The notes under the pieces: model-generated
What the model saw: only the letters and a program-made list of their open reading frames with translations
The model's database searches: none
What the model was told of the DNA's origin: nothing
In this document: positions 15,868 to 39,594 of the stretch, in pieces
How positions within the stretch are numbered: the first letter of the stretch is position 1
Layout of the letters: every line of letters begins with the position of its first letter
Assembly: GCA_000442015.1 (NCBI GenBank)
Contig: KE561067.1
Span: 62,001-109,740, forward strand
Source: Rozella allomycis CSF55
Lineage: Eukaryota
Length of the DNA: 47,740 nt
Direction of reading: 5' to 3'
Program-made: the position numbers and the translations under genes

Positions 15868-15934
15868 GTGGCACAGCAAAGAAATGAGCCACGTATGAAT
15901 CGGCCTTCTAAATGAAATATGCTTAAATAATTAT

Positions 15935-16736
15935 TTATTTCCTGTATTTGTCTCTTATTCTATGTAAAAAATATGAGAACACATATAAAAGTAAAAAACC
16001 ACAGAAAAGTTTGAGATACCACACGTGAGCGTTTGGAGCTTCCAAGTTCAAAAATCCGTAAACCCAGAACCTGTCTCCGTGATGATTTGTGAGAAACAAA
16101 CTAAGAATCCATGCTAGACACACATATAAAAATATAATCAAAATGAAAAATATGATGTGAGCAAAGAAGAAAGTGAAATTGTTGATATATGCGTCTATGA
16201 AAATCAAGGCAGTATCTAGGCCATGTACACTAATATTTAGCCACATTTCGACTCCGTCTCCGTTTTCACTTGATCTAAGGAACAGCCAATGCGTGATTGG
16301 CACCACAAGATGAAGAACGAATAAACTTTCATACCAAATGTTAACCAACAACGATTTTAATGTCACAATATCATAATCAACATTTTTCAACTTGACAGTG
16401 TAAAACAAAGTGGTCTAATATGTCAATATAAGTGGGTTTCTTACCAAAAAGTACATTGTTAAACTGGCATGGCTTATGTTCGTTAGAAAAACAAACCAAT
16501 AACCATCGTTAAAACTAAATACTAGAGTTGATATTAAAACAACTGAGGAATATAACGCCAGTATTGACTTTATCATTATAACAATTTTTGGGTTTATCTT
16601 CCTCATACACCGCAATCGATTTGTAGACAAAGGACTCAAACTCAATCTAAAATTAAGTGGGGTATTTTGCAGTATACGTTTTAGCAATTTGCAAGTTTTT
16701 ATCAGGATTGTGTACAGCGTTTAAATCCATTCCCAT
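15935..16736 (-). CDS. FAR-17a/AIG1/rolling-stone-like membrane protein, paralog 2 (2 introns)
   Basis: WFVFLTN, SVHG and FWVYGFLN motifs; introns of 31 and 30 nt. Confidence 0.8.
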
Positions 16737-17059
16737 TTACTTTTTTGTGGCTGAGTCTGTGAAAGAGTTTTTGGCCGTGGTATATTGAGAGGCTTTAGAA
16801 ATATCATATTCTTTTTTTAAAGAGTTAGCTTCAAAATTATATATTTGTTATTAAATTGTTGTTTAAGCGTAGTAATGATAATTATTATATATTCATGAAA
16901 TAGAAATATATTTGTCCGCTAGAAAAGAATTTAAGATGATTAACTTGACCATGATGAAAGCAAAAAGGGTAAATTGATTTTGATTACTATTTAATGACTC
17001 AAGTGGCTCCTCTCAAACTTTAGGCCTTAAATCTTAATTAAGTTAGATATATATTGGGT

Positions 17060-17884
17060 TTATTTTCTATACTTATCTCTTATTCTATGTAGAAAATATG
17101 AAACAATATATAAAAGCAAAATGCCAGAGAAAAGGCTTAGATACCACACATATGCATTTGGAGCATCCAAGTTCAAAAATCCGTATACCCAGAACTTTGA
17201 GCCATAAACATCTTGAAGTCCCAAACTGAGAATCCATGCTAGGCACAAATATAGAAATACGATGAAAACAAACAATAAAATGTGAGCAAAGAAAAAAGTG
17301 AATTTGTTGAAATATGCATCTATGAAAATCAAAGCGGTATCTATCCCATGTACACTGACATTTAACCACACGTGCATATTATCACTACGTTCACTTGACC
17401 TGAGGAAAAGCCAGTACGTTATTGGCACCACAAGATGAAGGGCAAATACAGTTTCGTACCAAATGTTTATAAGCGTCGATTTTAGTGTCACCATATCAGA
17501 GTTAATACTGCCGTATTTGATTATATAATAGGTAGTAGTCTAAATTGGTAATGTTATCATGCTCCATACCCAGAAGTACATTGTTAAACTAGCATAGCTA
17601 ATGTTGGTTAGATAAACAAACCAATATCCATTGTTAAATTTAATTACTAACGAAGTTATTAAGACAATTATAGAATATAAGGATAAGGCGGATTTTAACA
17701 TTATAGCGTTGCGAGGATTTAACTTCCACATAGAGCGTAATCTATTTGTAGATAAAGGCAGCAATCCAAAAGCATGCATCAGTCTAGTTTTAACCGCCGG
17801 GTTCGGCGTACTTTCATGCGTGTTAGCAATTGGCTGATCCGTATTGTGTATGACGTTAAGCTCTATTTCGTTTTGATTTCGCAT
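17060..17884 (-). CDS. FAR-17a/AIG1/rolling-stone-like membrane protein, paralog 3 (recent tandem duplicate of paralog 2)
   Basis: High similarity to paralog 2, with a shared 30-nt intron position. Confidence 0.8.
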
Positions 17885-17951
17885 TTGTTTATTTACATTT
17901 TAGTATTACCTAAGTAAATAAACTAAAAATCTTTTACTCTGTGGCTTTGTA

Positions 17952-19960: not shown

Positions 19961-20974
19961 TCAATGGCACGAGGTTTGTTTGTCGGCTTCTGCCACCTTG
20001 TAACGTCCAAACACAAAGAATCCAGTCACGGCGCCAACGATTATTGCCGTACATAAAAATCCATTATATGTCATAAATACCATCATTAAGAAGAAAGCAT
20101 AAAACGTATGGACACCATGCAGTAGGGATCTTATCGCCTGTTGCTTCCATGACCACGGACAAGAGTCGCATGAATTGTTTCTCTAAAACCAAAGAAATAT
20201 ATGATACTTGATGTTATTATCATACATGCGCCTCAGTAACCCAAACGCCTCAAATAGCACCGCTAAAAGAAGAATTGCAATGGTAGAGACGGCAAGTGAA
20301 GTATCAGAATGTACTGTCCACCACTCAAAGAAAACATTGTCAATTCTTGAATCCCAGTTCCAATACATCTAAATGGAGTGGAATCCAGGACTTTACTTTC
20401 ATCATGTGTTCCATGGGCATGTTTTGACTGTTATCTTCCATGCCATGATCCATTACGGCTTTCTTTCCNTTGTTTGTCGGCTTCTGCCACCTTGTAACGT
20501 CCAAACACAAAGAATCCAGTCACGGCGCCAACGATTATTGCCGTACATAAAAATCCATTATATGTCATAAATACCATCATTAAGAAGAAAGCATAAAACG
20601 TATGGACACCATGCAGTAGGGATCTTATCGCCTGTTGCTTCCATGACCACGGACAAGAGTCGCATGAATTGTTTCTCTACAACCAAAGAAATATATGATA
20701 CTTGATGTTATTATCATACATGCGCCTCAGTAACCCAAACGCCTCAAATAGCACCGCTAAAAGAAGAATTGCAATGGTAGAGACGGCAAGTGAAGTATCA
20801 GAATGTACTGTCCACCACTCAAAGAAAACATTGTCAATTCTTGAATCCCAGTTCCAATACATCTAAATGGAGTGGAATCCAGGACTTTACTTTCATCATG
20901 TGTTCCATGGGCATGTTTTGACTGTTATCTTCCATGCCATGATCCATTACGGCTTTCTTTCCTCCACAACACAT
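19961..20974 (-). CDS. Ctr copper transporter; one gene represented twice across contig join N20469
   Basis: Met/His-rich N-terminus, MYWNW, MMVFMTYNG (MxxxM), GAVTG and C-terminal SCH. The left copy lacks the start and the right copy lacks the stop. Confidence 0.9.
19976..20962. other. Assembly overlap of about 494 nt duplicated around N20469
   Basis: Near-identical copies abut the N; one substitution seen, in an intron. Confidence 0.85.
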
Positions 20975-21072
20975 TTTCCTCTTTTGGAGGGGCGCAGTAA
21001 ATAATAACGATTCTAGATTGAAAAAGATAATAAGTAGAATGCCAAAAATCTATTTTATTTATCAAAAATTCT

Positions 21073-21714
21073 TTATGTAGTTCCGTGAACCTTTTTTAAA
21101 TGTACATTCAGAGCACTTTTTTGTGTAAATCTTCTGTCACACTGCGTACAAGGGTATGGCCTTTCACCTACTTTGAATGGAACGCCAAATTTACCTGTAT
21201 GAGTTCTCAAATGAGCAACTAAATATGGTCTCTTTGCGAATCTTTGTTCACAACCTGGATGTGTGCATTTAAACCGGCGTTCGTTAGCATGTGTTCTTAA
21301 ATGAGCTAACAATTGCGATTTCCTAACACCTCTAAAGTCACACCCTTGATAATAGCATTTCAATGAATTGATGTTTTCATTAGTGAATAGGCTATATTGA
21401 TATCGTGATTGATCAATATCTGATTGATTGTTATGTGAGATATCTCTAGTTATCTCATTTAATCTTTCCATTATTTTGGATAAGGAAAAAGATATTTCAC
21501 CCAGCCAAATCCTATTTTCATTGTCTATTGTTGTTATCGTTTCTACTAGCGAAGACGTTAGAGAACTATACATTGTATTTATAGACTCCATAAATATAGG
21601 TGTTAGTGTGGACGAAGAATGGTCGATTTCACGTAGTAGCCTTCTGATAAACAAACGTGTTTGAGATTTATATTCTTGGATATTTGCAGAGTGATTATAG
21701 AGAGTGCTGTTCAT
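21073..21714 (-). CDS. C2H2 zinc-finger protein with 3 fingers (27-nt in-frame intron at 21168-21194)
   Basis: CxxxxC..HxxxH fingers; the HTGERPY linker is restored by splicing. Confidence 0.9.
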   Translation of the reverse strand: MNSTLYNHSANIQEYKSQTRLFIRRLLREIDHSSSTLTPIFMESINTMYSSLTSSLVETITTIDNENRIWLGEISFSLSKIMERLNEITRDISHNNQSDIDQSRYQYSLFTNENINSLKCYYQGCDFRGVRKSQLLAHLRTHANERRFKCTHPGCEQRFAKRPYLVAHLRTHTGKFGVPFKVGERPYPCTQCDRRFTQKSALNVHLKKVHGTT

Positions 21715-21987
21715 GGTCTCGAACGTGTATCCAAGTGTATAAAATGACCAGGGTTTATGTGTTCTAGACCATTAGTAGATCTTGAGAACTGGATAACCTG
21801 TGCGCCTATAAACTTACATAGACATAATCATATAATTTTTTAATAAGCGTGGCTACTTAAAATATATAAAACTATGGTCGTAGCGGCACATTATAAGCCA
21901 TAGATGGTGACTGTTTATTAATTCATTAAAAAACATAACTTAGCCTAATAAATTCATTTTATTGATTAGCAAAAATATTATTTATTG

Positions 21988-22972
21988 TTAATTTTGTTTG
22001 GTATGCATTTGTTGAGGCTGGGGAATCGCTGAATTTATCAATCTGAAAAGACTCTGAAGTAAAATAAGAGATTCATTAGCCAATGCGATTATTTGATGGG
22101 AATGCTTAACAAAACGCTTGGAATTATTTGATTCATCATATGATTCTGAAGTTATTGCACTCTTTTCGCGGTTAGAATAATTATGTTACCCATCGCCCAG
22201 GTAATGAGAGAACAAAAGAACGAATCATTGAATTAACAGTTTGGGGTAAAAAGGAAGAACAAGATGAAAGCATTTCTAATACTTTCGATAAAGTTTGCAC
22301 AATTTCTTGTTTCATTCTATTCGTAATCTGATGTACTCCGGCAAAAAATTCCTTGTTCGCTTGAATGAAAGCATCAGTCCACTCATCGAATGTAGTTTTT
22401 ATACTTATTTGGGCATCTGAAAATGCTGACCTAAGTGCGACAATGTTGTTATTGATTGTATCCTGTGATTCCTATATTTTATACAAATATTTTGTTTACC
22501 TGCAAGTAATCAAGGACACGGAATAGTTCCACGGACTGCTTTTCAAACTCTATTAATTATTTCAGTTCATTTACTTTATCCAGTTGTTTACAAGCAAATG
22601 AATCGAGATTGGAAGTTCCTATGGTTTTTAAAACTGGTTGACAAACATATTTCATGCCGGATTCTACTCTTTCAGCACCATACTATGACTGAGTAGATCT
22701 TTTCTAATTACCTTGACAAAGGCACTATTGTTTTTAGACTGATTGTAAAATTGGCTAATGGAATGCACTAATGGATAAGTAGCGACTCTTGATAGAAAAG
22801 ATTCGTTTTCTTTTCGATTATGAGGTCCAAGTTGCCCTGGGGATGCAGGCCTTGTTGAGTTTGAGGATGTAGATAAACGAAATTCAACAGAGGAGCAAGG
22901 CGATAATTCTGAAGTTGAATCACAAGCTAGAGCTAGCAAATCAATTCCATTCATTTCGGAAAAGGCGTCCAT
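21988..22972 (-). CDS. OPI1: Opi1-family transcriptional repressor (4 introns)
   Basis: FLSRVATYPLV..YNQSK.NS.FVKYGAE.VES, FACKQLDK, LDYLQ, KQEIVQTL.KV, IRSFVLSLPGRW and ALANESL motifs. Start could be 22954, 22972 or 23014. Confidence 0.85.
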
Positions 22973-22983
22973 TAAACAATTGA

Positions 22984-22989
22984 CACGTG
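22984..22989. promoter_or_regulatory. CACGTG E-box just upstream of the OPI1 start codons
   Basis: Lies between the bHLH stop (23027) and OPI1 ATG 22972. Confidence 0.35.
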
Positions 22990-23026
22990 GCTGAGGTGAT
23001 ACAATCACAAGCATTGCATTGTATAT

Positions 23027-23620
23027 CTATGAAATAGAATTTATTGAATTCAATTCTGATAAAATACTTTCTAGGCATTTGGATCGTTCAATAAGCCACT
23101 TTACATAAACAACAGCTTTTAGTGAGGAAGACAGAAAAATTACTTTGAAATAATACTTTTGGTTTTGTTCGAGCGCCATGAAATCCTTCAAATGAGATCA
23201 GAGCAGATAATTGTTCATACGCCTCCTTGATATTCTTTCTTCGTCGTTTCTCGCTTTCTATATGACTTGCTCTTTTTGGAAATTTGTTGCGAGCCTTTTT
23301 ATTCACGGTAAATTGATGAGGATGACTAATATTGGGATTTGTTTGCACTCTTATTAACAATATCAATAGCTACCTTGTTCCAGTGAAACGAATGAAACTT
23401 TTTCTGGAATAGTACCGCGTGGAGACCTTTCAAACTCCTTTCCTGTGACTAATTTTAATTCTAGATTTTCTGCATCATGCTGATCTTGAGCGTTAATTGA
23501 GTAGTCAAGGTGAAGATAATCATTGCTTACAAAAAGATCATCGCATGATCTCATATCAATAATATTTTGCATAAACTCTGATAAAAAACATTGCTCTTGA
23601 GGTGAAAACAACTGCGACAT
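23027..23620 (-). CDS. Ino2/Ino4-like bHLH transcription factor (2 introns)
   Basis: RASHIESEKRRRKNIKEAYEQLSALI...KPKVLFQTVVYVKWL; N-terminal LFSPQEQCFLSEFM helix. Confidence 0.8.
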
Positions 23621-23635
23621 GGATGGCTGAAATTA

Positions 23636-23706
23636 CACGTGAAATTGAAATTTCCAGTCCAATGTTGTCATATTCAATCTGATATAGATTTATTGAAATT
23701 CACGTG
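23636..23706. promoter_or_regulatory. Two inverted UASINO/ICRE-like E-boxes upstream of the bHLH gene (CACGTGAAAT at 23636-23645 on +; CACGTGAATT at 23697-23706 on -)
   Basis: One and two mismatches respectively to the yeast UASINO consensus CATGTGAAAT. Confidence 0.5.
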
Positions 23707-23945
23707 GTAAGCACAATTAGGTTTTGGGAATGTGCTTGTTAATGCCTATTCCTTTGCTGAGCCAATATTTTAGCAAAAAATACCAACGAATATTTGCTAA
23801 ATTACTGAATCGATGACTTCATTTTTACCATTTAGATTTAGTATTTGTTTAATGTTTAAAATAAAATATTGCCCTTGTTGCACCGCGGAATTAATAAAAT
23901 CAATGTTTTTAATTGAATTTGTAAATTTCGATTGGTTGATTATCC

Positions 23946-25156
23946 ATGAGGTTCAAGTCTGCAGTGATTGGAGCAGGGCCTACCGGCATTTGCGCAGTAG
24001 GACATTTGTTAGATTTAAGGCTGTACCCGATTCTTTGGATTGATCCTTGTTTCAATTCGGGTCGGCTATCAAGCTATGAAAATGTAAAATGCAATTTCTG
24101 TGTGAATAGGTTCCAAGCAATACTAAAGTAAAACTATTCATAGAGTTTGCCTTAAATTGCAACACTTTCAAAGAGATAGCAAGTCAAAATGATGATGTTC
24201 TAAAGGCTCTGTTGGCAATGGATCAGGATTCTGGCTGTAATTTAAGTCTCGCAGTGGGCATGACAAATAAATTAACCCAAGGAATGCAAAATTTTCATTC
24301 AAAAAAGGTTACTATGATAAAAGGTACCAAACAATAACCACTGACAAAGGAAATGTCAGATCGATGAATTTTAGTGACATAGTAAGTTAATTTATACTTT
24401 TATTAAAAGTGGTGCATTGAACTCGAAGGATCTGGGGAAAAACACTATTCAGACTCAACTATTCTTGCAACTGGTTCTCAACCACGAGAATCACGCCAAT
24501 TCCCATCAGAAACTCAACATGAAATAATTCCTATTCATTTAGACGTTGCTCTTGATCCTGGAAGGCTAAGTCAGATAATAACCAAGGATGACAATGTGGC
24601 TGTTGTTGGGTCAAGCCATTCCGCCATTTTGGTCTTAAAAAACTTATCACAGAATACATCCTGCAAAAGCATTTTAAATTTTTATAGGGAAGAATTAAAA
24701 TTTGCAGAGTACAAAGATGGTTGGATCCTTTATGACAACACAGGCTTGAAGGGTCAGGCTGCAACGTGGGCCAGGAACGAATTGTCCAAGGTACAAAAAA
24801 TTAAAAGAATAAAACTTCCAAAAGAGAAGAACAAAGAAGAAGAAGTTTATTTGGCACATTTAAGAGGCTGCACAAAAATCATCTACGCAATTGGTTTCGA
24901 AAGGAATCCTTTGCCAATAATTTCAGTTAATGATAGAGTTTGTCGAGAAATAAGTTATAATTCTAAAAACGGGCAGATGAGCGATGAAAATGGACCATTG
25001 GATAACTGTTTTGGTTTCGGCATTGCATTTCCTGAGAAAACAATAGACCCTATGGGAAATGTGGAATACGCAGTTGGTTTATATAAATTTACTCGGTACA
25101 TGAAAAATATTTTCCCAGTCATATTTAAACCGCTTTTAGATAAATTGAATAAATAA
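23946..25156 (+). CDS. FAD-dependent pyridine nucleotide-disulfide oxidoreductase-like protein (3 introns)
   Basis: VIGAGPTG, VPSNTKV, ILATGS.P, VVGSSHSA, WILYDNTGLKG, YAIGF and FGFGIAFPE. Confidence 0.9.
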
Positions 25157-25201
25157 ACACTAAAAATATTCTTTTCACTTTACTCAGCCACTTTGTTTTT
25201 T

Positions 25202-26411
25202 ATGACCCAAGCGCATTCAGTTCTAGTCGGAATATCTTTAGGCACTTATTCTTGCTCTGTGAGTCATTTCAAGGATGGCCACCCTGAAATCATCCCAAAT
25301 GAAGATGGCGATCGTTTTATTCCTTCCGTTATTACATTTACAGAAGATACTATAGTAAATTAATATTCCATTTTTAAAATAGCTTGTAGGGACCCAAGCA
25401 AAAATCCAAGCGTTTAAAAATCCAAGAACTACGATATGTGATTTTATTGGAGTTCCATTCGTCGACTTTGAAAAAAACAAATCCTTTGACAAGGAGAGTG
25501 AAAAGTTCGAATTAGGAGAAAATTTTTACTCTTTTAAAGAGCTTTTGAGAATATATTTATCGACCTTGAAAGTTTCAGCTGAAACTTACCTCGGAAACAC
25601 AATTACCGGGGTTGTCTTGTCTATTCCGTTTTCTTTGTCTAAAGAAGAGCGACTGGTTTATTTAGATGCTGCAAAAGAAGCTTCACTTAATGTCATTCAG
25701 CTACTTGATGACTCATCTAGTTCAATGTACCACGTCATAAACAAATATGCTCCAGAAAAGAATGAAGTGAAGGCGTTAGTTGTGGATATTGGTTATTCTA
25801 GCTTGAAATTAAGCACTTTTCACTCAAAAGATGGTTTACTTGTAACTCCATCTCAAATCCAACACACGGATTTTGGGTCGTCAAGTTTGACAAGGGTATT
25901 ATATAACCATTTTTCAACTGAATTTAAAAGGAAAACCGGGATTGACATTAATGATTACAAGAAGTCTGTGATAAAAATGAAGAATGCAATAGAGAAAACT
26001 AAAATGTCTTTGTCAAATGCTGATGTTTCCAATTGCTTTGTTGAATCATTGGCGGAGGGTGTTGACTTTTCGTCAACTATCAATAGAAATAAATTCGAAT
26101 TCATGTCAGAGTCGTTTTTTAACGGCTTCAAAACTGCTATCGTGCAATCCCTGAACTCTTTTCCTGTAGATATGGTAATATTGACTGGAGCTTCTGCAAG
26201 AATTCCAAAAATTCAATTAATAGCCAAGAATATTTGTGCTAGTGCTACTGTTATTGTTTCACCTGAACCAGAAGCGGACAGCGTGAATGGCGCAGCCACT
26301 CAAGCTCAATTGTTCAAAAATCTCTTTGATTTTCAATTTAAAGAAGATGACGTACTCGGATTAAATGAAGAAGAATGCATTTTGGAAAATGGGTTATATA
26401 AAATCAAATAA
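25202..26411 (+). CDS. SSZ1: Atypical Hsp70 (Ssz1/HSPA14-like), nucleotide-binding domain only (1 intron)
   Basis: VGISLG, PNEDGDRFIPS, VGTQAK, VVDIG, FVESLAEGVDFSSTINR and GASARIPKIQ; ends shortly after the NBD. Confidence 0.8.
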
Positions 26412-26446
26412 ACGTGTCATTAGTAATTTTCACATTTAGTTTTTCA

Positions 26447-27899
26447 ATGTGGATAATCTTTTTTATCCTTATCATGGTTATCCTGCTTGGAAGACTCTTC
26501 AGGACTAAGAAGGTCGTCTTTTTCCATCCCTTTTGTATGTCGTTTGGTGGTGGTGAACGTGTTTTGTATACGTGGATGAAGTTTTTGAAAAATGATAAAG
26601 AAATAATGATTTTAACCGGAGAGAAATCAATAGATATAATGAAAATCAGGGTAAGTTTTTACCTTGTTGAAAATAGGAACGATTTGATATTGATTTGTTN
26701 AATAGGAACGTTTTGATATTGATTTGTTAAACTACCCGATAAAAGTTGTTTCATTGCACACAAGAAGATTATTGGATCCCCTCTTGTAATAATTTATGAT
26801 GATAGTCACAGATTTCCTATAGCAACTTTATTTTTCCAAATTTTAGGTTCTTTAATCATAGGTTTGGATTGTTGCGCCAAATTACTTTTCAAAAGTCCTG
26901 AAGTTCTAGTAGATACAACGGGGTGCGCTTTCATCTACCCAATAATTAAATTGTTCCTTGGTTGTAAAATTGTATCCTACGTACATTACCCTTTCATAAG
27001 GTAAAAATTGGTTGGTAAAATGAGAGTTCCGATATGCTTCAAATGGTTTCAAAAAGGGAATCAAATTATAACAACAAAAATTATATCACTAATAACAGTG
27101 CATTGACACAAGTTAAACTATATTACTACAAAATTCTATCTTTTGTATATTGTCTATGTGGTTCATTTGCTGATGAAATCCTCGTGAACTCAACGTGGAC
27201 ACACAATCATATCATCGAATTATGGCAAAACCCCGAAAAGACTCACATTGTTTACCCCCCATGCGGCATTGAAAAACTAATAAACATTGATATAGTAAAG
27301 CCAAGAAATCCTATAATACTATCTATCGGGCAATTTAGGTATTATTTTGATAAAATTTAAATAAGAAAGGAAAAGAACCATCAGTTGCAAATAGAGGCCT
27401 TTGCAAAATCTAATGCCAGGTCTACGCATAGGTTGATATTAGTCGGCGGTTGCAGGAATGAAGAAGATTATAGTCGCGTCTGTGAGTTAAAATCATTAGC
27501 GAACATTTTAAATGTATCAGAGAGAGTAGAATTTAAAGTGAACGTGAGCTTTGATGAACTGTACAATCTCCTTACCCTTGCAGACATTGGAATTCATACA
27601 ATGCAAGATGAGCATTTTGGAATATGCGTTGTTGAATACATGGTATACTTTGCATAAATACAATTTAGGCTGCGGGTCTTATTCCCATCGCTCATAACTC
27701 AGGTGGCCCCAAATTGGACATTGTCGATGAAAAATGTGGATTTTTAGCTAAAAATGCTGAAGAATATTCGAATTCTATTAATGCCATCCTTTCAATGTCA
27801 ATTAGGAAAAAGCAAATGTACCGAGAAAACGCACGATTGAAGATTGAGCAAACTTTTTCAGAAAGTCAATTCGCCAATAATATAGAATGCTTATTTTAA
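26447..27899 (+). CDS. ALG11: Alpha-1,2-mannosyltransferase Alg11 (5 introns; N26700 overlap)
   Basis: FFHPFC..GGGERVL, YVHYP.ISSDML, NSTWT.NHI, VYPPC, EHFGICVVEYMAAG and HNSGGPKLDIV. Confidence 0.95.
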
Positions 27900-27971
27900 T
27901 AGTAAATATACTTGTTTATGGCAATTTTTGTTATTTTTTCTTTTAATACGCTTGGTGTGGCTAGGTTTAAA

Positions 27972-29304
<1,333 letters not shown>

Positions 29305-29505
29305 AAATAAAAAAACTTTTCTGCATTTTAGCAATAACAATGAATGCCAACCATGCATTATCAGGCTTCAGCTAATGTTCACTAGAACCGACGTATCCTA
29401 CGAAGCGAAAACTTCAAAATAGACCAAAATGCATATTATTTTGCTAGAGAATTTATTGCCTTCTCTGTAAATGACTGATAAATGCATTGCCTTGTCTATC
29501 GAATA

Positions 29506-30563
29506 CTAGTTTGTGTATGGTTCAAGTGTTTTCATCGCTGTAGAATATGCAAAGAATGTAACCGCGTTAGTTGGAAATGCTCTCACTATCGTTGCATTTA
29601 GTCCTCTAAAGAAAAAGTTTATGCCATGATTCTTATAATGATCCTTAAAAACAGCCCATGTATTTCTATAACGAAAAGGTTGATCGAAATGTTCCGACTG
29701 CATGACTGTCTTTACTACGTCAAACGGATAAGTTGTTATCCAACTGCAAATACCCGCCATTCCACCTGCAAACATTAAAAGCATTGGATTTAACTGAGAT
29801 GAGTCTCCGTCTTTCGAAAGTTTTCTGCAAATGTACTCGTAAGATGAAAAATAGGCACCGTAACTTGGCGTTTCACGTAAAATAGTAGCCGATATTCCTC
29901 TAAAACATCCTCGAAACCCTTTAACGCGATAGATTCTAGACAAACAATTAAATGTCCCTTTATATGCATTTCTGTCTCCTTTTTTGACTTGATTCTGAAG
30001 CTGAATTTTGGCTAATTCTGTTGGCCCAGAAATGATGCTGTTCAAAAATCCTGATCCAGCACCGGCAACAAAAATTTGCTCTAAAGAAGGTTTCCTTTCA
30101 TTTCACTATAAAGTTATTACTCTTTGGGATCATTTAATTGGTAATTTAGGATAGATCCATAGACTCCAAAAAGGAATGAGTTGACAAGAGTCACACCAAT
30201 CATTGGCGCTGATATTCCTTTTAAAAGACCTAGAGCCAAAAAATGAAAATAAATCGTTTTACTGATTCTTCTTTGACAATCGTTTTAAAACAATGAATGG
30301 TTCCTTTATACTTTGGGTTTACAACATCTTGACTCTGTAAACGGACCTATTAGATAAGATAAAAAGTATTTAAGTATTTACTTTGACGGTATCAAAAGGT
30401 TGACCTGCTAATACACCTCCAAGACCTTTCATTAGGATATTGCATTGTTACCGGCGAATGTTCCAGAAATAAAGTTAGCTATGCTTGGATGAATGAATCC
30501 TTGTACATTGTAATCATCAGTTGGATTAATTTGCCCCGTATCTAAATTTGATGAATCTGCCAT
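29506..30563 (-). CDS. Mitochondrial carrier, SLC25A29/45 / Ymc-like (4 introns; GT-TG intron at 30237-30262)
   Basis: Three Px[DE]xxK repeats (PFDTVKVRLQ, PTELAKIQLQ, PFDVVKT); RETPSYG and RAFPTN. Confidence 0.92.
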
Positions 30564-30826
30564 TCTCCAATTAGCATTCACTTTAGGTTTTATGGGCCTT
30601 GACCAGGCTTGACAAAAATAGAACGCATGTTTTATGAGATGAACTTCAGTTCAAAAATTAAAGGCATTATCGTGCAGTGACATATATATATATATAGCGG
30701 AATTTGATGCACGAAATGGGGGCTTTAGGAATTCAACTTGAAGTTCAATTATCTAGACCATGCAAGTTCAAAGGGGATTCAACATTAAGCGTATAATAAT
30801 TGTTAAAGAAGAAATTTAAACTAAAT

Positions 30827-33800
30827 TTATTTTTGAATTGGCTGCAGATTATTTAATATCAGAGTGGCTAATGCAGAACCAATTACAAAGTTGCCTTCAT
30901 TTGTTATGTCCTTTAAAGTTGAAATTAAGGTAGAATCACACGGAAAATTTGGATTTTGCCATTGTTCAGCCATTTTTAGTAAAAGTTTTAGTAAATTGAT
31001 TCTAATATTTGGATGATTCTTAAGTTTGTTAATTTTCCCGATGAAAGACTCAATAACGGAAGGAATTGTCAATGAGAAACATATGTCTCTTGAGTCTGTT
31101 ATTAATTTAAACAAAGAGTTGGTTATTGATTCTAAACTCAACGTCGCATAATTGCACAAATCTATTAGAAAAGTTAGGTTTTCATTCAACAGCAACGTTT
31201 TCTCCACATAATCCCTATCTTCATTGAACCAAGAGCAAATGGCTTCTAAAGAATTTGGAGCCCAATATTCATCTTCAAGCATTCCAATTAGAAACAAAAG
31301 CAAATCATTTTCCTTTAAAAGTGGTCGACATTGGCTAGTTCGGGCCATTTCACAAAGAATTGGAATTGTTAGCGATTTTCTACTTCCACCTCCAACAAAA
31401 GTTAGTTTCATTAATTCAGGAATTACATTATTGGATGTAAATCTAAAAATTCTGCTAGAGTTTAACCTGAAGAGCTTTAGGCCAATCAACAAGGCTTGAT
31501 TTTTTATTTCCTCTTATAAAAAACAATAATTCTGTACACTTATAAACGCATAATTTGGCTCCTTTAAACAATCCGCCAGAATCTCAATGTAGTCCAAATG
31601 TTCCAGTAAAGGATGTGAAATTTCCAAATCACATATGTTCCTAAGTACTTTAATCCAGAGAAGAATGTGTTGGTTGCTTAGTTCATAGAATAGTAATTGA
31701 AAATCTATTTATTACGAAACCATATATCATACTAAATAATACAGCATTCGTGCAGAACTTTTCTTTAGTACCATGATCTGCATTTGACAAAAGCAATAAT
31801 ATTGATAAAGCATCCTTGCATATTCCTTGTGATATTTCATCATCCTTAATGCTAAAATCATTTATTATTTCAATAAATCGAAGAATGTGCTGTTCACAGG
31901 ACAATATCCTACAAATGTCATTTTTAGAGAAATGGTGTTTGAAAAGGTTGCCAATGCAGAAAATGCATCGTGCGATAACGCCACGATCGGATGAATTCAA
32001 AACATCTAACATGACTTTTACCCCATCACAGGCAACAAATGTTGCAACTATTTCTTTAAATGAACAAATAATTTCAAGTGAAATGGAAAATGTTTCTAAA
32101 CATTCGTAAAATGGGAATCTTAAAANACATTCGTAAAATGGGAACCTTAAAAGAATAGGAATTCCTCCTAATTTTGAAAACTTGTCGATGTATTCAAAAT
32201 CCTTTCTAACAATCAAAAATTAAAATAATATTATTATATTACTTGATTAAATAAGTTCAAAACGTGTTCTGATCTATAATGTTCCAGGGCCTGGATAAAG
32301 TCAAAATAACCTTTAGATTTGATAAACGGTAAACGGGCTATTGGATACTTTCTAATCCCAGAAACCTAAATAATAATAAGCCAAATATAATACCAAATTT
32401 TCACAGTGCAACTTTATTTGACTTTGTTCATATCGTCCACATTGTAAAAGGGAATCCCAAGACATCTCCAGCCATTTTATTTCTTCTCTTTCTTCAATTG
32501 GCACTACTATGAAATCTTTAGACTCAAGCCTAATTAATTCCAACTCTGCCAGGTCATCAATTGAATCTGCAATCGATACTTTCATTTTGCTTATTTTTAA
32601 ATCCGCGTCATCATTTAGCTTAAATGCCAAATTATAATCTTCATTTTCATCCTCAATAGTAGAAGAAAAATTTATTTTATTAGGCGGACTGGAATTTTCA
32701 TTCTTAGACCCTTGCACAAATTTCAGTAACGTGGAAGCGTCCACGTCATCCCAATCGTCATCATCTCCTTTTATATCGCCTATCATACTAACGTTTTCAT
32801 CGATTAGTGACGATTGGACTATTTGTTTGGATACGTACTCCCCCTTTCGAACCACAGAACCCTCAGCAAATTCGCTATCATCGATAGAATTCACAAATTC
32901 ATCCAAGTGGCCCATGGCTGATTCAAAGTTTTCTTCATCATTAAGCATATGCTATATTTTTCGATTAAGATTATAGAATACCTTTTCATGGCCTTTTGTA
33001 ATCCATGGGTGACGTAGAAGCTTTGAGGCACTCACCCGCAAATTGACATCCTTTTGGAAAGTAAGCATCAGAAAATCTTTAAGAGCCTAAGTTTTAATCA
33101 ATTGGCATTTTGCTACATTAGATATTCCGTCTGGAAGCGGTGGATGCTCATCATTAACGATGCGATACAATGCTGCCATTGGAGACAGATGAAAGTATGG
33201 AGGTTGGCCTTGAATTAATTCAATAGTAGTGCAACCAACACTCCATATATCCGACCCAGTGTTAACACCTGATAATTCAATGACTTCAGGTGCCACTTAA
33301 TTTGATAGTATTTAGCTTTATTACTCCAATAAGGCGAGCCTATTATCATCGAGTCGTCTTGAGTGTCACTAAATCCCACGCTGACACCAAAATCTGCTAG
33401 TTTCACCCGACCATCTTTTGTCGTCAATATATTGGCTCCTTTTATATCTCTATGAATAACTCCTTGGTCGTGGAGAAAACAAAGCCCTTTAAGAACTTGC
33501 GATATATAAAAGCTAACCAATGATTCAGGAATTTTTCCAAACTTTTTACAAATTGTTACCAATGAACCATTTTCGCATAGCCTAACAATCAAAAAATGGC
33601 TCTTTACTCTAACATTATATTCAAGTATCCGTCTTCTTCTGAAGACCCGATATATTCCACAATGTTGTCATGTTTGAGCCGTTTTAACAACTCTATTTCA
33701 GCCTGTTCTAAAGCGTTAATGTTATTACTCTGATAGCTTCCAACTCTGATTTCTTCATGCTTTCGCATTTAACTTGTTTAATCGCTATACAGTTTCCCGT

Positions 33801-33937
33801 GTTAATATTAATGCATCGGTAGACAGTGGCAAATGCTCCCTTTCCCAAACAATCCCCAACTTGCTATCTTTTGGAGCATAATAAATAATTCTTACATATG
33901 ATTTACATATTATTGAACCGGCAGATGTTTTCTGCAT
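30827..33937 (-). CDS. CDC15: Cdc15/Cdc7/SepH mitotic exit and septation kinase with ARM-like C-terminus (10 introns; GT-TG intron at 32214-32242; N32126)
   Basis: [62 protein letters not shown] and FQKDVNLR; C-terminal GGIP block. Confidence 0.9.
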
Positions 33938-34111
33938 TAATAACAATGACTAATTGGTGGCGTAGTCATTAACATTAATTCTGAACTTACCTCGATCAAT
34001 AAGAAGCATAAGTGCATAGCAAGTTAAGAAATAAAATCTAGAATCTTGTTTTTTGCAAAAATGTTCATTCAAAAGGAAATATTCCAAACCTAAATTTTTT
34101 CGTGGCTTAGA

Positions 34112-35651
34112 ATGAATATTTACACGTCCGCTCTTCTTAGAGAAGCGTCCCCACCACCGCGTAAAAGGTTGGGGGATCATCAAAATACACCAATTCCAAA
34201 AAAAGTTCCGTTAGCGGTGGTTTCAGAAAAACCTACCAATGATGAAAGTCTCAATAATCTTATAGAGCAATACCAATATCACACAAAAAAACTTGATGAA
34301 ATTCTGACAAAAATCAGTCTCATTTTAGGCGGACACTCAGGACAGTCTATTCCACATCTTTCTGAATTCGATCAATCTTTCCTTGAAAACTTTGCAAGTC
34401 CTAACGATGATAACGGCCAAAATTTTATTCCAGAAATTTTAAGCTCGCCAAGGAAGGAAGACATTGATAATTTACATGACGATAAAACAGAAATTAACCA
34501 TGTTAGCCATATTTCAAACATTAACATCCACACGAAACAAAAAGTATTTTCTCGAAAACCAAGAGGGATTTACTGTAACCAAAATGGACCATTAATTGCA
34601 GCTTCAAGTCTGGATGGGACTGTTCAAGTTCATGATTACGAGAGTCAAAAGTAAAGACAAAATTAGCATTTCATAGATTGAACTCAACTTTTATCCCTTT
34701 TCCGGGCCATTGGGTAGAAATAATGACGTGGATACCCGCCTCAAATAAGGCTGTTCTGATATCTTCAACAAAAGATACAACTACTCCTTCCAATGTGTGT
34801 TTTGTCCCAGATATGGTAAAAAATATTCTTGAAAATACTCAGAGTTCATCAAATCCATCCACCATACCATTATCTGGGTCTTTAGAGCCAAAAGGGATTA
34901 TGGATATCGAAATTGACCCGAATATTTTTGCAGATAACTTTTCATTTTTTACTTGCTCGAAAGATAAATTAATTGTATATTTTTCTATATTTTTTTATCA
35001 AGATTCAATGGAAGGTCAACGAGGACCTAAAAACTGAAACGAAGGTCGTTCATAACATACATACGACCTTTATAAATAGTCTTAGACTTAAAGACCGAGA
35101 TTTAATTTCTGGAGGGTCCGATTTCAGATTCGTGATTTGGAATTTGGACCGATCAGAAAAATCGTTAGAGTTAAAAATGCCAGGGAGAGTCAATCATGTC
35201 ATGGTTAATTCCAATCAGTCAAATCTTTCACTTTCTTGGTAGAAATTTCACTTAATGCTTACTTAGTTTATCTTTGAAAAACAACCAATTTCGATTATTT
35301 GATCATAGACAACATAAGATTGTAAACGAATTTGGTTGGGAGGAAGTAAAGAGACTTTGTACATAATATAGAGTGATAATTTATCAAAGTATATTTATCC
35401 TTCTTGGCACCAAAATGGTCACATTGTGGCTTGCGGTACAAGCACACTTGAAAGGCCATGTGTGAACATTTGGGATATCAGATTTCTAAAAGATGGTAAA
35501 CCATCGCAACACATAATGTGTCATAGTAATGAAATACATTTAGTCCCAAAAAGGTAAACGAATTAACCAAACATTGTGGCTTCCGAACGGAAAGTCCCTT
35601 GCTACGATTTCGTCAGATTGCTCTATGAGCTTTATTGACTATACCATTTGA
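34112..35651 (+). CDS. WD40-repeat protein (6 introns)
   Basis: SSLDGTVQ, SGGSD.RFVIWN, FRLFDHR, PSWH.NG..VACG, IWDIR and TISSD. Confidence 0.8.
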
Positions 35652-35677
35652 AGAATGGAATAAATATTTTTTTATTT

Positions 35678-36202
35678 TTAAACAAGTGCATCTGCATCTT
35701 TGCTTAATAGCCTATAATTGATAGTTTTGGATTTGGTATACACCATGTAGCAGATAGCTAAACCAGATGCACCTAATAGTGCAAGGGGAAGGCTCAAGCC
35801 CCACCAATCTTCTTCGTTGTTTTCAATGCTTTGACTTTCATCCTCTGATACGGCTTCAATGAATAATAAGTTCTCATCTTTATTTTTTCCAGGGACGTCA
35901 ACAAATATTGGAACTTTTTGATCTGTTTCAGGAATTTCTGTCGTATTCTCCTCATATTTATCAACTTCATTCCCTTTCTGATCAACAATTACGTGCTTAT
36001 CAACATGTTCGATTACTTCTACATTTCCTTGATCATCGCTTATGATGTTGTCAGTTTTGGTCACCATATCCACATAAGATTGGCCAGATATTTGAATGGG
36101 TTTGTTTTCAGTTGTGGTAACTTTTGTAAGAATATTTGGATGAAGCCGACAAAAATTAGTGCTGAAAAACAATACAATCAAAAGGAAACCAGATAGATAC
36201 AT
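35678..36202 (-). CDS. Type I single-pass membrane protein with acidic ectodomain
   Basis: Signal peptide, acidic middle region, one TM helix and a short tail containing YRLL. Confidence 0.7.
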   Translation of the reverse strand: MYLSGFLLIVLFFSTNFCRLHPNILTKVTTTENKPIQISGQSYVDMVTKTDNIISDDQGNVEVIEHVDKHVIVDQKGNEVDKYEENTTEIPETDQKVPIFVDVPGKNKDENLLFIEAVSEDESQSIENNEEDWWGLSLPLALLGASGLAICYMVYTKSKTINYRLLSKDADALV

Positions 36203-36351
36203 ATGTTACAAAGGAGGTGTCTTCTACTATTTATTACACACAATGTCCAATTAGAAGGGCGCGTAGCTAAAAATAGGATTTCCCTACTATAATTAATCCA
36301 TTTGTTTTTATATGTGTTAACTCATTCTAATGATTAATGGATTTTTTATTG

Positions 36352-37975
36352 TTAAATTAAGATAGTGTCAAATAGCTGAAACCTTCGCGTATTTTGAATG
36401 GAATAATAATGAATGCAACCCTTTAGCCTCTTTAATGGATTATTGCTAGGATTATGAATTACGCCATTGTCATCAATAATCAAGCCCAGTTTATTGACAG
36501 CTTTATTTTTCAAGACATTGTATGAAGCAGAGTTCTTTAACAAATTTACTGGAGTTAAACCTGTAAAAAATGATTCCTTAAATTATTAATTTATGGGATT
36601 TACCGCTTGATCGCCGTATATAATTACAGGTAGAAATCTTCTGTCAGAATATAGAATGAGGCAAAACTTAAACTTATATTTAACTTTGTCCTCATGAGAA
36701 ATTTCACCGCACTTTGCACACTTCAAGTGGTCATCAGGTCCCTTAATGGTACCAAAGCTAGATAAATTTTAATGCATTGAATACCACTGTTGACAGAAGG
36801 GACAAACAGGTACAACCCAATCAACCAGTCGTTCCGGAAACGCACCTGCGATGGCCCCTTCAAAATGAAAAATTCCGAATACATTATTTAAAGTCTCTAT
36901 GCTCTTGGTTGAGAGAATTTGGGAATCCTGGCAATTACAGTCTATCTTTGTGCAAAGGTTTGAGGTTTTAAATGGCATTTTCACCTCTCGAGATAGTGCT
37001 GGTAGTGGATTTTGAAGCGAGCGCCTATACGATAAATTTAACCAACTTACGTGAGGATATTTTTAGCCAACGGGTGATCTGAGTCAAGAATTTTAAATAT
37101 TTCTTCAAATGGTTTACATACACTGCCTCTTAAAGAAAATATATATTTTGGTTCATCTTCTCTATTTTTCTTTACGAACAAATGCGAAATTTGGTAGACT
37201 TTGCCAAATTGAAGGGCGCTACATTGTTCAACGTGCCTATCCCAGGCAATTAATAAACTAGTGGGTGTACTGTTATTTTGAAAACTGCGATGGGTGAAAA
37301 TACGAAAGTCTTACCAAAAGTCTGGGTTTTCTGTATAATCTGTTACTTCAAGGATCAGCATGTTCTCCCGGGGTAAATCCTTTATTTTTAAGACTCTGAC
37401 CACTAAAGACACGCTTGTCATATTTTGATTGGCGTTTTTAATCTCAATAAAATCAAAAGTCTTTGGTTCAATGCAGGAAGGTAGTTCTGAATCTGTTTTT
37501 GCAAGTACAATAGCTTGCTCGATGTTAAATTGATCGCTGGCAGCAGGCGTCGATAGATCTCGAATAGGCAATGCATTATGAAAAATATTTTCTATCTCAT
37601 CGTAAACAAAACACCCAAAATCCCCCAAAGACATTCCTTTCAAGTTAGAATTCGTACTTATAACCTAATTTGTTACTTTATCTATCATATCCCATACTTT
37701 AAACTTTGTCAATACAACAACTTTTGCATTTATTTCTTCGCTAGGAGGAAAGTATGCCAAAGAACTCTTAAAGATACGTGCGTCAAAAAAGATGTTTGGT
37801 TTCTTCAAGTCTGTCAAAGTTATTGTCATCATGAAATCTATTATCACACAACGCTTGTGTTACCAGCTCCTTTACATTTTGTGGGACTTAGAATACATTG
37901 CACCCTCCCAATAATATTAATCACCTGCTTTACGAGAGTTTCGTTAATTTCTGAAGGCGAAAGTAGAATAGTCAT
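36352..37975 (-). CDS. POT1: Protection of telomeres 1 (OB1, OB2 and C-terminal OB with C4 zinc ribbon; 6 introns)
   Basis: INIIGRV...[30 protein letters not shown]...CAKC, AESFF.GL.P and CIHYY...FQLFDT. Confidence 0.85.
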
Positions 37976-37998
37976 TTAGAAAAAATCGGAAAGGCATC

Positions 37999-38897
37999 AT
38001 GATTATTTTAAATTGTTTAATGCAAGCTAGTAATGCCATGAAGAAAAAGTCAGCTTTATGGCCCGTGTTACTATGTATTGCTTTGATGAATGTTCCACTA
38101 GTCATTTGGTACATCTACATATCATTGAAGGAGCATTTTGTTTATTTGGGGCTAGTGTGTTATTTTCATACTTATGCGATAATATCAATGACTAGAGTAT
38201 TTCTGACCAATCCAGGCTATTATCCAAAGTTGGATATTGATTATTTCGAACATGTTTATAATCCAAATCCCACATATCCAGTCTCTTCTACTGATGTGTT
38301 TCCAAGCCAGATAGAACTCGAGCTAAAGGGAGTTCGGGTCATTCAGAAGTTTTGCAATACGTGTAAATTTTACAGACCTTTAAGATGTACTCATTGTTCA
38401 ATTTGCGATAGATGTGTTGGTAAAAAAAGTAGAGGTGCCTAAATAAATTAGATAGGTTTGACCATCATTGCCCATGGCTAGGGAATTGCATTGGCAGAAG
38501 AAATTATAGATTCTTCTTATCGTTTTTATGCTCATGCACAATGCTGTTAGTTGTAGTTTTTGTTAGCTCGGTAACGTTGCTAGTTAGGAACTTGAGCCTT
38601 GGGGAATCTGTTTCGTATGATCCATCAAGCATTGCAGGTATATTTCTAATTTCATACAGCTTTATTATTTTTTGGTCAGTGGGTGGCCTATTTGGCTTCC
38701 ATTGTTTCCTCGCGTCTAGAGATATGACAACAAATGAACAAGTACAAACTTTATAATCGAATGAAAAGATAAAATGGTCTATAGATAAAAGATTTAATGC
38801 AAATCAGCATCCTCCTAATTCATATGGAGGTCACCTGTTTTCAAATTGTTTTCATGTTATTTTCTCTGCACCCTGGAATAAAAAGTATGCATCGTAA
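37999..38897 (+). CDS. DHHC palmitoyltransferase, Erf2-like (2 introns)
   Basis: [48 protein letters not shown] and TTNE. Start may be 38020 or 38038. Confidence 0.92.
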
Positions 38898-38996
38898 AAA
38901 TTGTTTAATAAAATCAGCATTAAAATTAATATAAGTCTTAGCTCCTTTATTTGAATATATCTAGGTTATTTCATACTTAATTGTTTTATCAACGGT

Positions 38997-39545
38997 CTAT
39001 ATCACATGTATGACATGGCCCTGAGAAATCAAGTGTTCAACATCAGTCCTCCTAACAAAATGTTGCGAATCTTTTTCAAGAGTAATAACTCCGCTGGTTG
39101 TTAGCAAATTTCCACAATCTTTCAAAACTCTTATCTGAATAAACAAGTCTTTCGGGGGTACTAATGAAGCTCTTATGTCTAAAAATTTATACTTGGATAT
39201 CATTTTAGCCATTAAGTTTGAATAGCTTTGCAAAAAGTTGGATTCATGAGTGTTCGATTGCTGCATAACCTGATTTACTGCTCGACTACCACCTTGCCAG
39301 AACAAGCTTTGAAGCATTTGCAATCTATGTTCGTGATATAAGATCAGAGATTGTTTTCCTCTTTCAATTAAAGATTTGTAAATGTCAATATGTTTTGAAA
39401 ATGAGTCTGTATTGGCAATATCTTGTGCGGACGAATAATGTGCGCTTATTTCTTGAAGTTGTTGACGTACTGCTAGTTCATTATATGGGGAGTATATCGC
39501 ACCCTTATTTCTTTTTATTTCTTTAACTAATGATGAAGCTTGCAT
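38997..39545 (-). CDS. PSF1: GINS complex subunit Psf1
   Basis: PYNE..VR, YHEHRL, ESNFLQSY, PPKDLFIQIRVLKDCG and SQHFVRRTDVEHLISQG. An upstream in-frame ATG at 39596 is also possible. Confidence 0.93.
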   Translation of the reverse strand: MQASSLVKEIKRNKGAIYSPYNELAVRQQLQEISAHYSSAQDIANTDSFSKHIDIYKSLIERGKQSLILYHEHRLQMLQSLFWQGGSRAVNQVMQQSNTHESNFLQSYSNLMAKMISKYKFLDIRASLVPPKDLFIQIRVLKDCGNLLTTSGVITLEKDSQHFVRRTDVEHLISQGHVIHVI

Positions 39546-39594
39546 TTTTCCGTTCAAGAAAATTCGCAAATTAGGGTGTTTGTTTATATTTGCC

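What the first reader, a model, noticed from the sequence alone, without database searches (positions are those of the whole stretch)
30237..30262. GT-TG intron in the mitochondrial carrier
On the minus strand the junction is TCA|gtaaaacgatttattttcattttttg|GCT CTA GGT CTT TTA AAA GGA (26 nt). This gives KEESALGLLKG, matching the carrier signature E-S/G-x-x-G-L-Y-K-G. A canonical TAG 7 nt downstream gives GTC TTT TAA, and retention gives a TAG stop. So a TG appears to beat a nearby TAG that follows a good pyrimidine tract.
Basis: partly seen in the sequence, partly recalled or inferred. Interest (0 to 1): 0.8.

Follow-up and report, generated by a model that had tools for sequence, protein, structure and literature searches.

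The report
Conserved Rozella intron ending in TG
A 26-base intron in a mitochondrial carrier gene of the fungal parasite Rozella allomycis sits exactly where relatives have a normal intron but ends in TG instead of AG, so it is either a rare rule-breaking splice site or a broken gene copy, and both public gene models at this spot look wrong.

Summary
The window is Rozella allomycis. On the minus strand, 30262-30237 is a 26-nt GTAAAA...TTTTTG segment inside a five-exon mitochondrial carrier gene. Only its exact removal gives a 314-aa protein that aligns without gaps to homologs, scores 414.5 bits against 372.3 for the deposited model, and keeps 45 of 45 conserved columns. Eight environmental loci (six lineages) have a phase-0 intron at the same codon boundary, all GT-AG. 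The closest, L027, reads ...KEES|GT...TTTAG|GCTTTAGGTC.... So this is an old intron whose acceptor A is a T. Its length, 5' site and 3' context are typical of about 40 local introns, while the TAG alternative is not. Both deposited models (EPZ33349.1, RKP20915.1) avoid it with a 44-nt GT-AG intron that deletes 15 conserved codons. Use of the TG in RNA could not be tested: no RNA run holds the locus. R. allomycis is reported triploid, so a sheltered null allele is a serious rival. GT-TG introns are already known in human and Ganoderma. Verdict: a real, modestly interesting, unverified non-canonical acceptor.

The parts
30452..30563 (-). Carrier exon 1 (ATG at 30563; 112 nt, ends in phase 1)
   Evidence: Coordinates. 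The translation matches both deposited proteins.
30426..30451 (-). Intron 1, 26 nt, GTAACA...GAAAG (GT-AG)
   Evidence: L027 has an intron at the same position.
30382..30425 (-). Exon 2 (44 nt; LGGVLAGQPFDTVK)
30347..30381 (-). Intron 2, 35 nt, GTAAAT...CTAATAG (GT-AG)
   Evidence: L027 has an intron at the same position, after TVK.
30263..30346 (-). Exon 3 (84 nt; VRLQSQDVVNPKYKGTIHCFKTIVKEES)
   Evidence: Weak Pfam Mito_carr match on its own (17.8 bits, E 0.0028, below the cutoff). 37 of 48 nt are identical to the L027 exon.
30237..30262 (-). The finding: intron 3, 26 nt, GTAAAACGATTTATTTTCATTTTTTG (GT...TG). The terminal TG is 30238-30237.
   Evidence: It is orthologous to GT-AG introns in 8 loci. 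Its 5' site ranks 19 of 40 and its 3' context 18 of 40, and its length is in the modal class.
30230..30232 (-). TAG 7 nt downstream: the nearest AG, which would be the canonical acceptor of a 33-nt intron (30262-30230). It consists of Leu-Gly codon bases (CTA GGT).
   Evidence: Using it gives ...KEESVF*. L027 has the same TAG inside its exon (TTA GGT). Its 3' context ranks 1 of 40.
30121..30236 (-). Exon 4 (116 nt; ALGLLKGISAPMIGV...NDPKE)
   Evidence: 41 of 60 nt are identical to the L027 exon with no indel.
30095..30120 (-). Intron 4, 26 nt, GTAATA...GAAAG (GT-AG)
29506..30094 (-). Exon 5 (589 nt including the TAG stop at 29508-29506); carrier repeats 2 and 3
   Evidence: Pfam PF00153, E 1.6e-46. 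100% identical to RKP20915.1 over 97% of the query.
30268..30311 (-). 44-nt GT-AG intron used by the deposited models. It removes the YKGTIHCFKTIVKEE codons and leaves the 26-nt segment translated as ISKTIYFHFL.
   Evidence: Splicing with these coordinates reproduces EPZ33349.1 (P0121) exactly, 308 aa. It scores 42 bits lower and loses a conserved Glu.

Best explanation
The 26-nt segment 30262-30237 (minus strand) is an old phase-0 U2-type spliceosomal intron of a carnitine/basic-amino-acid-type mitochondrial carrier gene of Rozella allomycis. Position -2 of its acceptor has changed from A to T. I infer that the spliceosome still cuts at this TG at least part of the time and so makes the only mRNA that encodes an intact carrier. 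The proposed reason is that everything else about the site is normal for this genome's ultrashort introns: a GTAAAA 5' site, a 26-nt length, a T-rich tail, T at -3 and G at +1. An AG lies 7 nt downstream, as in the known TG-AG tandem acceptors, while that TAG itself sits in a poor context at an unusual length. Shown: the exon-intron structure, the conserved intron position, the ancestral AG state in relatives, and the intactness of the coding sequence. Inferred: that the TG is actually used in RNA, and how efficiently.
For: Organism and gene: 100% identity to R. allomycis proteins RKP20915.1 and EPZ33349.1; Pfam Mito_carr E 1.6e-46. Only removal of exactly these 26 nt gives an open 945-nt CDS. 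That protein scores 414.5 bits against a profile of 54 full-length homologs, versus 372.3 for the deposited model, and keeps 45 of 45 columns conserved in at least 85% of them. A phase-0 intron lies at the same boundary in L003, L005, L013, L018, L019, L022, L027 and L032 (six lineages, since L013/L018/L019 are one), all GT...AG. L027 also shares Rozella's introns 1 and 2, and its flanking exons align colinearly (37/48 and 41/60 nt). Against 40 local GT-AG introns, the 5' site ranks 19 of 40 and the AG-masked 3' context 18 of 40, and 26 nt is in the modal length class (11 at 26 nt, 13 at 27 nt). The 33-nt TAG alternative has a 3' context rank of 1 of 40, and only 1 of 40 introns is 33 nt. The second assembly's protein also reads FHFL (T6 then G). 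It differs from the first at 3 of 302 residues, and 2 of those fall in the 9 codons overlapping the 26 nt (Fisher p 0.0023), as expected if the segment is non-coding. Precedent: verified human TG acceptors lie within 28 nt of an AG, with a pyrimidine at -3 and a purine at +1. 22 GT-TG introns are listed in a curated Ganoderma annotation, with a printed ratio of 0.024%.
Against: There is no transcript evidence. The one RNA run listed holds next to none of the locus, and laying it gave only 18-34-nt stray matches. In human genes TG was never the sole acceptor, and AG>TG disease mutations activated neighbouring AGs, not the TG. Here the neighbouring AG gives a premature stop. All 24 other introns that I read in Pfam-matched genes of this window end in AG, so nothing suggests a generally relaxed AG rule. 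No good yTrAy branch motif lies in the segment; the best is TTCAT with its A at -8 (my reading), although 27 of 40 local introns also lack a yTrAy match. R. allomycis is reported triploid and heterozygous, which shelters recessive null alleles. One of the three single-base routes from Ser to Arg in the second assembly would destroy the GT donor (inference).
Confidence: 0.5

Rival explanations
1. Sheltered null allele. The A-to-T change killed the acceptor on this haplotype of a triploid, probably asexual genome. Transcripts of this allele use the TAG 7 nt downstream (frameshift, stop after two codons) or retain the intron. The function is supplied by another haplotype with AG, or the carrier is dispensable.
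For: Ahrendt et al. 2018 report R. allomycis as triploid, with heterozygous SNPs shared between single cells and the isolate (passages read). The two deposited proteins differ at 3 of 302 residues, so more than one haplotype is sampled in this gene. Three of the 9 N's in the window are flanked by 26-28-nt duplicates with one mismatch, which look like SNP bubbles. Human AG>TG acceptor mutations shift splicing to nearby AGs. The 24 other introns read in Pfam-matched genes of the window all end in AG.
Against: Both assemblies carry the TG although they differ at nearby sites. The rest of the gene has no lesion and keeps 45 of 45 conserved columns, so any inactivation would be very recent. Of the six possible single-base changes to AG, the one seen is the one with documented residual or alternative use.
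Confidence: 0.33
2. Base-call or assembly error: the true genome has AG here.
For: The assembly has visible artefacts around N's. I could not examine any reads.
Against: Two separately produced assemblies give proteins that read F-H-F-L across the site, which requires TTT CAT TTT TTG or TTA and not ...TTAG. A substitution error repeated in both is unlikely.
Confidence: 0.06
3. The deposited model is right. A 44-nt GT-AG intron (30311-30268) is removed and the 26-nt segment is translated (…NPK-ISKTIYFHFL-ALG…).
For: It keeps an open frame with canonical ends and reproduces EPZ33349.1 exactly. Introns of 43-47 nt do occur among the ORF-joining candidates in the window.
Against: That 'intron' encodes YKGTIHCFKTIVKEE in frame, with 37 of 48 nt identical to the L027 exon. 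The model scores 42 bits lower and loses a conserved Glu. It shows a 6-column gap and non-homologous residues against 9 of 9 homologs.
Confidence: 0.03
4. No splicing: a -1 ribosomal frameshift in the T-run reads through the segment and adds nine residues (VKRFIFIFL).
For: Frame 2 is open through the segment and frame 0 runs to the TAG, so a -1 shift at TTTTTT would join them.
Against: T TTT TGG is not an X XXY YYZ slippery site (my reading; the motif is recalled). No significant structure is predicted here (z 0.02). The segment starts with GTAAAA, has the modal intron length, and replaces an intron present in relatives. The insertion would split the conserved E-x-x-x-G-L-x-K-G block.
Confidence: 0.02

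Closest known systems
TG-AG tandem 3' splice sites of human U2-type introns (Szafranski et al. 2007, Genome Biol 8:R154; abstract and the section on sequence characteristics read)
   Same: A GT...TG intron with an ordinary U2-like 5' site, an AG close by (7 nt here; the limit was 28 nt in human), a pyrimidine at -3 and a purine at +1.
   Different: In human the TG is an alternative to a productive AG and is never the sole site. Here the TG would be the only productive site, and the tandem AG gives a premature stop. The intron is 26 nt, and use of the TG is not shown by RNA.
GT-TG introns catalogued in curated annotations: 22 in Ganoderma lingzhi, printed ratio 0.024% (table passage read), and GNAS and TSPYL2 in human (passages read)
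   Same: The same terminal dinucleotides, at a similarly low frequency (1 beside 24 GT-AG introns read in this window).
   Different: Those are supported by transcripts. This one rests on homology and a conserved intron position only.
AG>TG acceptor mutations in human disease genes (as summarised in Szafranski 2007)
   Same: The same base change at -2 of an ancestral AG acceptor, as shown by the AG in six related lineages.
   Different: Those mutations abolish the site. Whether this one does is the open question.
SLC25 carnitine/acylcarnitine and basic-amino-acid-type mitochondrial carriers (names given by sources; Pfam PF00153)
   Same: Carrier repeats with PFDTVKVRLQ, PTELAKIQLQ and PFDVVKTVMQ. 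43-55% identity to fungal and rozellid-like homologs over exon 5.
   Different: The substrate is not tested. The subfamily assignment rests only on names given by the sources.

Membership tests
U2-type spliceosomal intron | 5' end GT with the local consensus (GTA[AT]..) | tested here: met
   GTAAAACG; PWM score 6.8, rank 19 of 40 local introns.
U2-type spliceosomal intron | 3' end AG | tested here: not met
   It ends in TG (30238-30237, minus strand). Shifting the cut by one base gives TA...GG.
U2-type spliceosomal intron | Length and composition typical of the genome's introns | tested here: met
   26 nt, against 11 at 26 nt and 13 at 27 nt among 40 introns. AT fraction 0.81 against a mean of 0.72. 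AG-masked 3' context rank 18 of 40.
U2-type spliceosomal intron | Branch-point motif (yTrAy) a few bases upstream of the 3' end | tested here: inconclusive
   No yTrAy match; the best is TTCAT with its A at -8 (my reading). 27 of 40 local introns also lack a yTrAy match, so the motif is weak in this genome.
U2-type spliceosomal intron | Removal restores the conserved reading frame; intron position shared with orthologs | tested here: met
   8 loci in 6 lineages have a phase-0 GT-AG intron at the same boundary.
U2-type spliceosomal intron | Excision seen in RNA | not testable with these tools
   No RNA holder was listed. Laying run X1 gave no cover of the gene.
TG-AG tandem acceptor (Szafranski 2007) | AG within 28 nt of the TG; pyrimidine at -3; purine at +1 | tested here: met
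   The AG is 7 nt downstream, with T at -3 and G at +1.
TG-AG tandem acceptor (Szafranski 2007) | Both TG and AG junctions present in transcripts (alternative use) | not testable with these tools
U12-type intron | 5' [AG]TATCCTT and a TCCTTAAC branch site (motifs recalled, not from a call) | tested here: not met
   The 5' end is GTAAAACG, and no TCCTTAAC-like string lies in the 26 nt.
Mitochondrial carrier family (PF00153) | Tripartite repeat matching the Pfam profile above the gathering score | tested here: met
   Exon 5: 156.4 bits with 2 stretches, cutoff 22.3. Exon 3 alone: 17.8 bits, below the cutoff. The full spliced model aligns over positions 15-301 of a 321-position profile of homologs.

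The most novel reading that the evidence does not exclude
In Rozella's 26-28-nt intron regime the 3' cut is placed mainly by distance from the 5' site and branch point, not by the AG. AGs at intron positions 24 or 25 are skipped in five local introns. On this reading a TG at the canonical 26-nt distance serves as the sole productive, essentially constitutive acceptor and outcompetes a real AG 7 nt further on. The human survey never saw that.
Probability: 0.25. Interest if true: 0.55.

Novelty: new member of a known kind. Interest (0 to 1): 0.33.

Why it matters
If the TG is used, this is a natural case of a non-AG acceptor acting as the only productive site of a conserved intron, in an organism whose introns are close to the physical minimum. 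It would be a compact substrate for asking how the second catalytic step chooses the 3' site. Whatever the RNA shows, the finding has practical value. Both public gene models for this carrier (EPZ33349.1 and RKP20915.1) appear wrong at this junction: they delete 15 conserved codons and translate an intron, because predictors insist on GT-AG. If the site is dead, it is instead an example of a sheltered null allele in a triploid parasite.

Tried and rejected
RNA evidence: no RNA holder was listed for 29400-30700. Laying the one same-species-label metatranscriptome run X1 on 21000-40999 gave 8 pieces of 18-34 nt from 5 contigs, no joints, and none in the gene. This is no evidence either way.

Whole genome: none is held.

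ORF-only search for other non-AG introns: with flanks of at least 28 codons, 433 of 883 joinable ORF pairs lacked a GT..AG solution, which is far too noisy. With flanks of at least 50 codons, 21 of 60 lacked a 22-40-nt GTA..AG solution. By my reading these are antisense ORFs or introns longer than 40 nt. One TG-ending candidate (17914-17941, +) has no Pfam support on either flank and lies opposite a minus-strand gene, so I dropped it.

RNA structure hiding the TAG: none found (z 0.02, 93 of 200 shuffles fold as well).

U12-type intron: rejected on the 5' motif.

TAG acceptor with a shifted donor (TA..AG, giving KEESGLLKG): rejected because it is non-canonical as well and two residues short against the homologs.

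James et al. 2013 (the genome paper) is not held, so the sequencing chemistry and any RNA support for EPZ33349.1 remain unknown to me.

In the set of 40 introns behind the PWM, I dropped 4 of the 43 candidates because their length fell outside 24-36 nt. I dropped 1 more (29805-29836) because it lies inside Pfam-covered carrier exon 5. I then added carrier introns 1 and 2. A few of the remaining 38 may still be false.

Full report
What is there. The window is nuclear DNA of Rozella allomycis. Exon 5 of the gene in question is 100% identical to NCBI protein RKP20915.1, and the same cluster holds EPZ33349.1 of strain CSF55. On the minus strand a mitochondrial carrier gene (Pfam PF00153, E 1.6e-46 for exon 5) runs from the ATG at 30563 to the TAG stop at 29508-29506. 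By my reading it has five exons: 30563-30452, 30425-30382, 30346-30263, 30236-30121 and 30094-29506. The four introns are 26, 35, 26 and 26 nt. The third, 30262-30237, is the finding: GTAAAACGATTTATTTTCATTTTTTG. Removing it gives ...KTIVKEES|ALGLLKG.... Using the TAG 7 nt downstream gives ...KEESVF*. Retaining it gives ...VKRFIFIFWL*. Shifting the cut by one base gives the same mRNA with TA...GG ends, so no canonical pair is available. No ORF of 70 codons or more lies on the plus strand over the site.

Is the junction real? Three independent lines say yes.

(1) Protein homology. The spliced 314-aa product aligns without a gap to 9 of 9 homologs through the junction (YKGTIHCFKTIVKEESALGLLKG against, for example, YNGTVNCFLTIIREEKVTGLYKG). 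Against a profile built from 54 full-length homologs it scores 414.5 bits and keeps 45 of 45 columns conserved in at least 85% of them.

(2) Intron position. I fetched 80 related metagenome loci, of which 79 gave a tblastn hit. Five show a clean break at residues 80-83 (L003, L005, L019, L027, L032). 35 have one alignment running across the site; these are transcripts, intron-poor organisms or paralogs, and my crude rule wrongly placed L013 and L018 among them. 39 are not informative. Read by eye, L013 and L018 carry the L019 intron with a longer GT repeat, and L022 also has the intron. So 8 loci, from six lineages, have a phase-0 intron at exactly this codon boundary, and all are GT...AG.

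(3) The closest of these, L027, is almost a template. It reads ...ACAATTGTGAAAGAAGAATCT|GTAAAT...TTATTTATTTAG|GCTTTAGGTCTTTTTAAAGGA. Its exons match Rozella at 37 of 48 and 41 of 60 nt without indels, and it shares Rozella's introns 1 and 2. Rozella's ...TTTCATTTTTTG|GCTCTAGGTC differs at the acceptor by T for A at -2. The downstream TAG is simply the Leu-Gly codons, and L027 has it inside its exon too.

How the segment compares with local introns. ORF-joining GTA...AG candidates in the window peak sharply at 26-28 nt (26: 10, 27: 13, 28: 5, of 43). Many split Pfam domains at consecutive profile positions, in ALG11, TGT, DHHC, ECH, RPIA and a protein kinase. In genes with Pfam matches I read 24 GT-AG introns of 23-35 nt besides the TG one, so the TG is the lone exception seen. 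Position matrices from 40 introns place the segment's 5' site at rank 19 of 40 and its AG-masked 3' context at rank 18 of 40. The 33-nt TAG version has the second-worst 3' context (rank 1 of 40) and a length seen once in 40. In five introns an AG at position 24 or 25 must be skipped for one at 26 or 27, which hints at a minimum length near 26 nt. No significant RNA structure is predicted around the site (z 0.02).

The public models. EPZ33349.1 is reproduced exactly by a 44-nt GT-AG intron at 30311-30268. RKP20915.1 has the same architecture. That model removes 15 codons that are clearly homologous coding sequence and translates the 26-nt segment as ISKTIYFHFL. It scores 42 bits lower and loses a conserved Glu. 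I take it to be a predictor's way of keeping a frame with canonical sites.

Sequence reliability and alleles. Both deposited proteins read F-H-F-L over the site, which fixes the DNA as six T's followed by G (or A) in two separate assemblies. The two proteins differ at 3 of 302 residues: D3N, S66R and T68K. Two of the three fall in the 9 codons that overlap the 26 nt (Fisher p 0.0023), as expected if the segment is non-coding. By inference, T68K is C>A at intron +7. S66R is either a synonymous A>C at the last exon base, which leaves the donor intact, or T>A/G at intron +2, which destroys it. I could not see the DNA. Ahrendt et al. 2018 (passages read) report R. allomycis as triploid with heterozygous SNPs, so these differences are probably allelic. 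Traces of heterozygosity are visible in the window: three single N's are flanked by 26-28-nt duplicates with one mismatch, and a fourth N sits at the joint of a 494-nt tandem duplication.

What it most likely is. The structure is settled: an old intron whose AG is now TG. Its fate in RNA is not, because no RNA run holds the locus.

For functional use of the TG:
- The gene is otherwise intact.
- Both assemblies share the TG.
- The site keeps every other intron feature.
- It fits the architecture of the known TG acceptors: an AG within 28 nt, a pyrimidine at -3 and a purine at +1 (Szafranski 2007).
- GT-TG introns are listed at a printed ratio of 0.024% in a curated fungal annotation and are known in human GNAS and TSPYL2.

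Against:
- In human genes TG was never the sole site, and AG>TG mutations activated nearby AGs. Here that means a premature stop.
- A triploid, probably asexual genome shelters such null alleles.

I put productive TG splicing at 0.5, a null allele at 0.33, a sequence error at 0.06, the deposited model at 0.03 and frameshifting at 0.02.

Novelty and interest. GT-TG introns are a known rare class, so this is a new member, not yet verified. The interesting twist, if RNA bears it out, is that the TG would be the only productive acceptor of a 26-nt intron and would win over a real AG 7 nt away. That points to distance-based 3' site choice in ultrashort introns. The sure yield is an annotation correction for two deposited proteins.

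Noticed in passing
window 26700, 28996, 32126 (single N's): Each N is flanked by a 26-28-nt tandem duplicate with one mismatch (27/28, 25/26 and 25/26 identical). They look like the two alleles of a heterozygous SNP laid side by side by the assembler. Those at 26700 and 28996 lie inside the ALG11 and TGT genes and would add spurious residues to gene models.
   Followed up: partly
window 19976-20275 and 20470-20769, N at 20469: A tandem direct repeat of at least 300 nt with 494-nt spacing begins right after an N. It duplicates a Ctr copper-transporter exon and its 27-nt intron, and the two intron copies differ by one base. It is either a real tandem duplication or two haplotypes assembled in series.
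   Followed up: partly
window 27001-27026, 23348-23373(-), 31511-31537(-), 20181-20207(-), 20675-20701(-): These introns end in ...AGAG. The AG at intron position 24 or 25 has to be skipped for the one at 26 or 27 to keep the frame. This suggests a lower length limit near 26 nt for splicing in this genome.
   Followed up: partly
window 17914-17941 (+): A second GTA...CTG segment of 28 nt would join two plus-strand ORFs of 52 and 86 codons. Neither ORF has a Pfam match, and a minus-strand Rost-like gene lies opposite. It is probably chance.
   Followed up: partly
window 15139-17899 (-): Tandem paralogs of a 'rolling stone' (PF21534)-like membrane protein, each with a 30-nt intron at the same relative place (16415-16444 and 17540-17569).
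   Followed up: no
L013, L018, L019 (intron at about 1598-1659 in L019): The orthologous intron in this environmental lineage holds a (GT)n microsatellite whose length differs between samples, giving 62 versus 68 nt.
   Followed up: no
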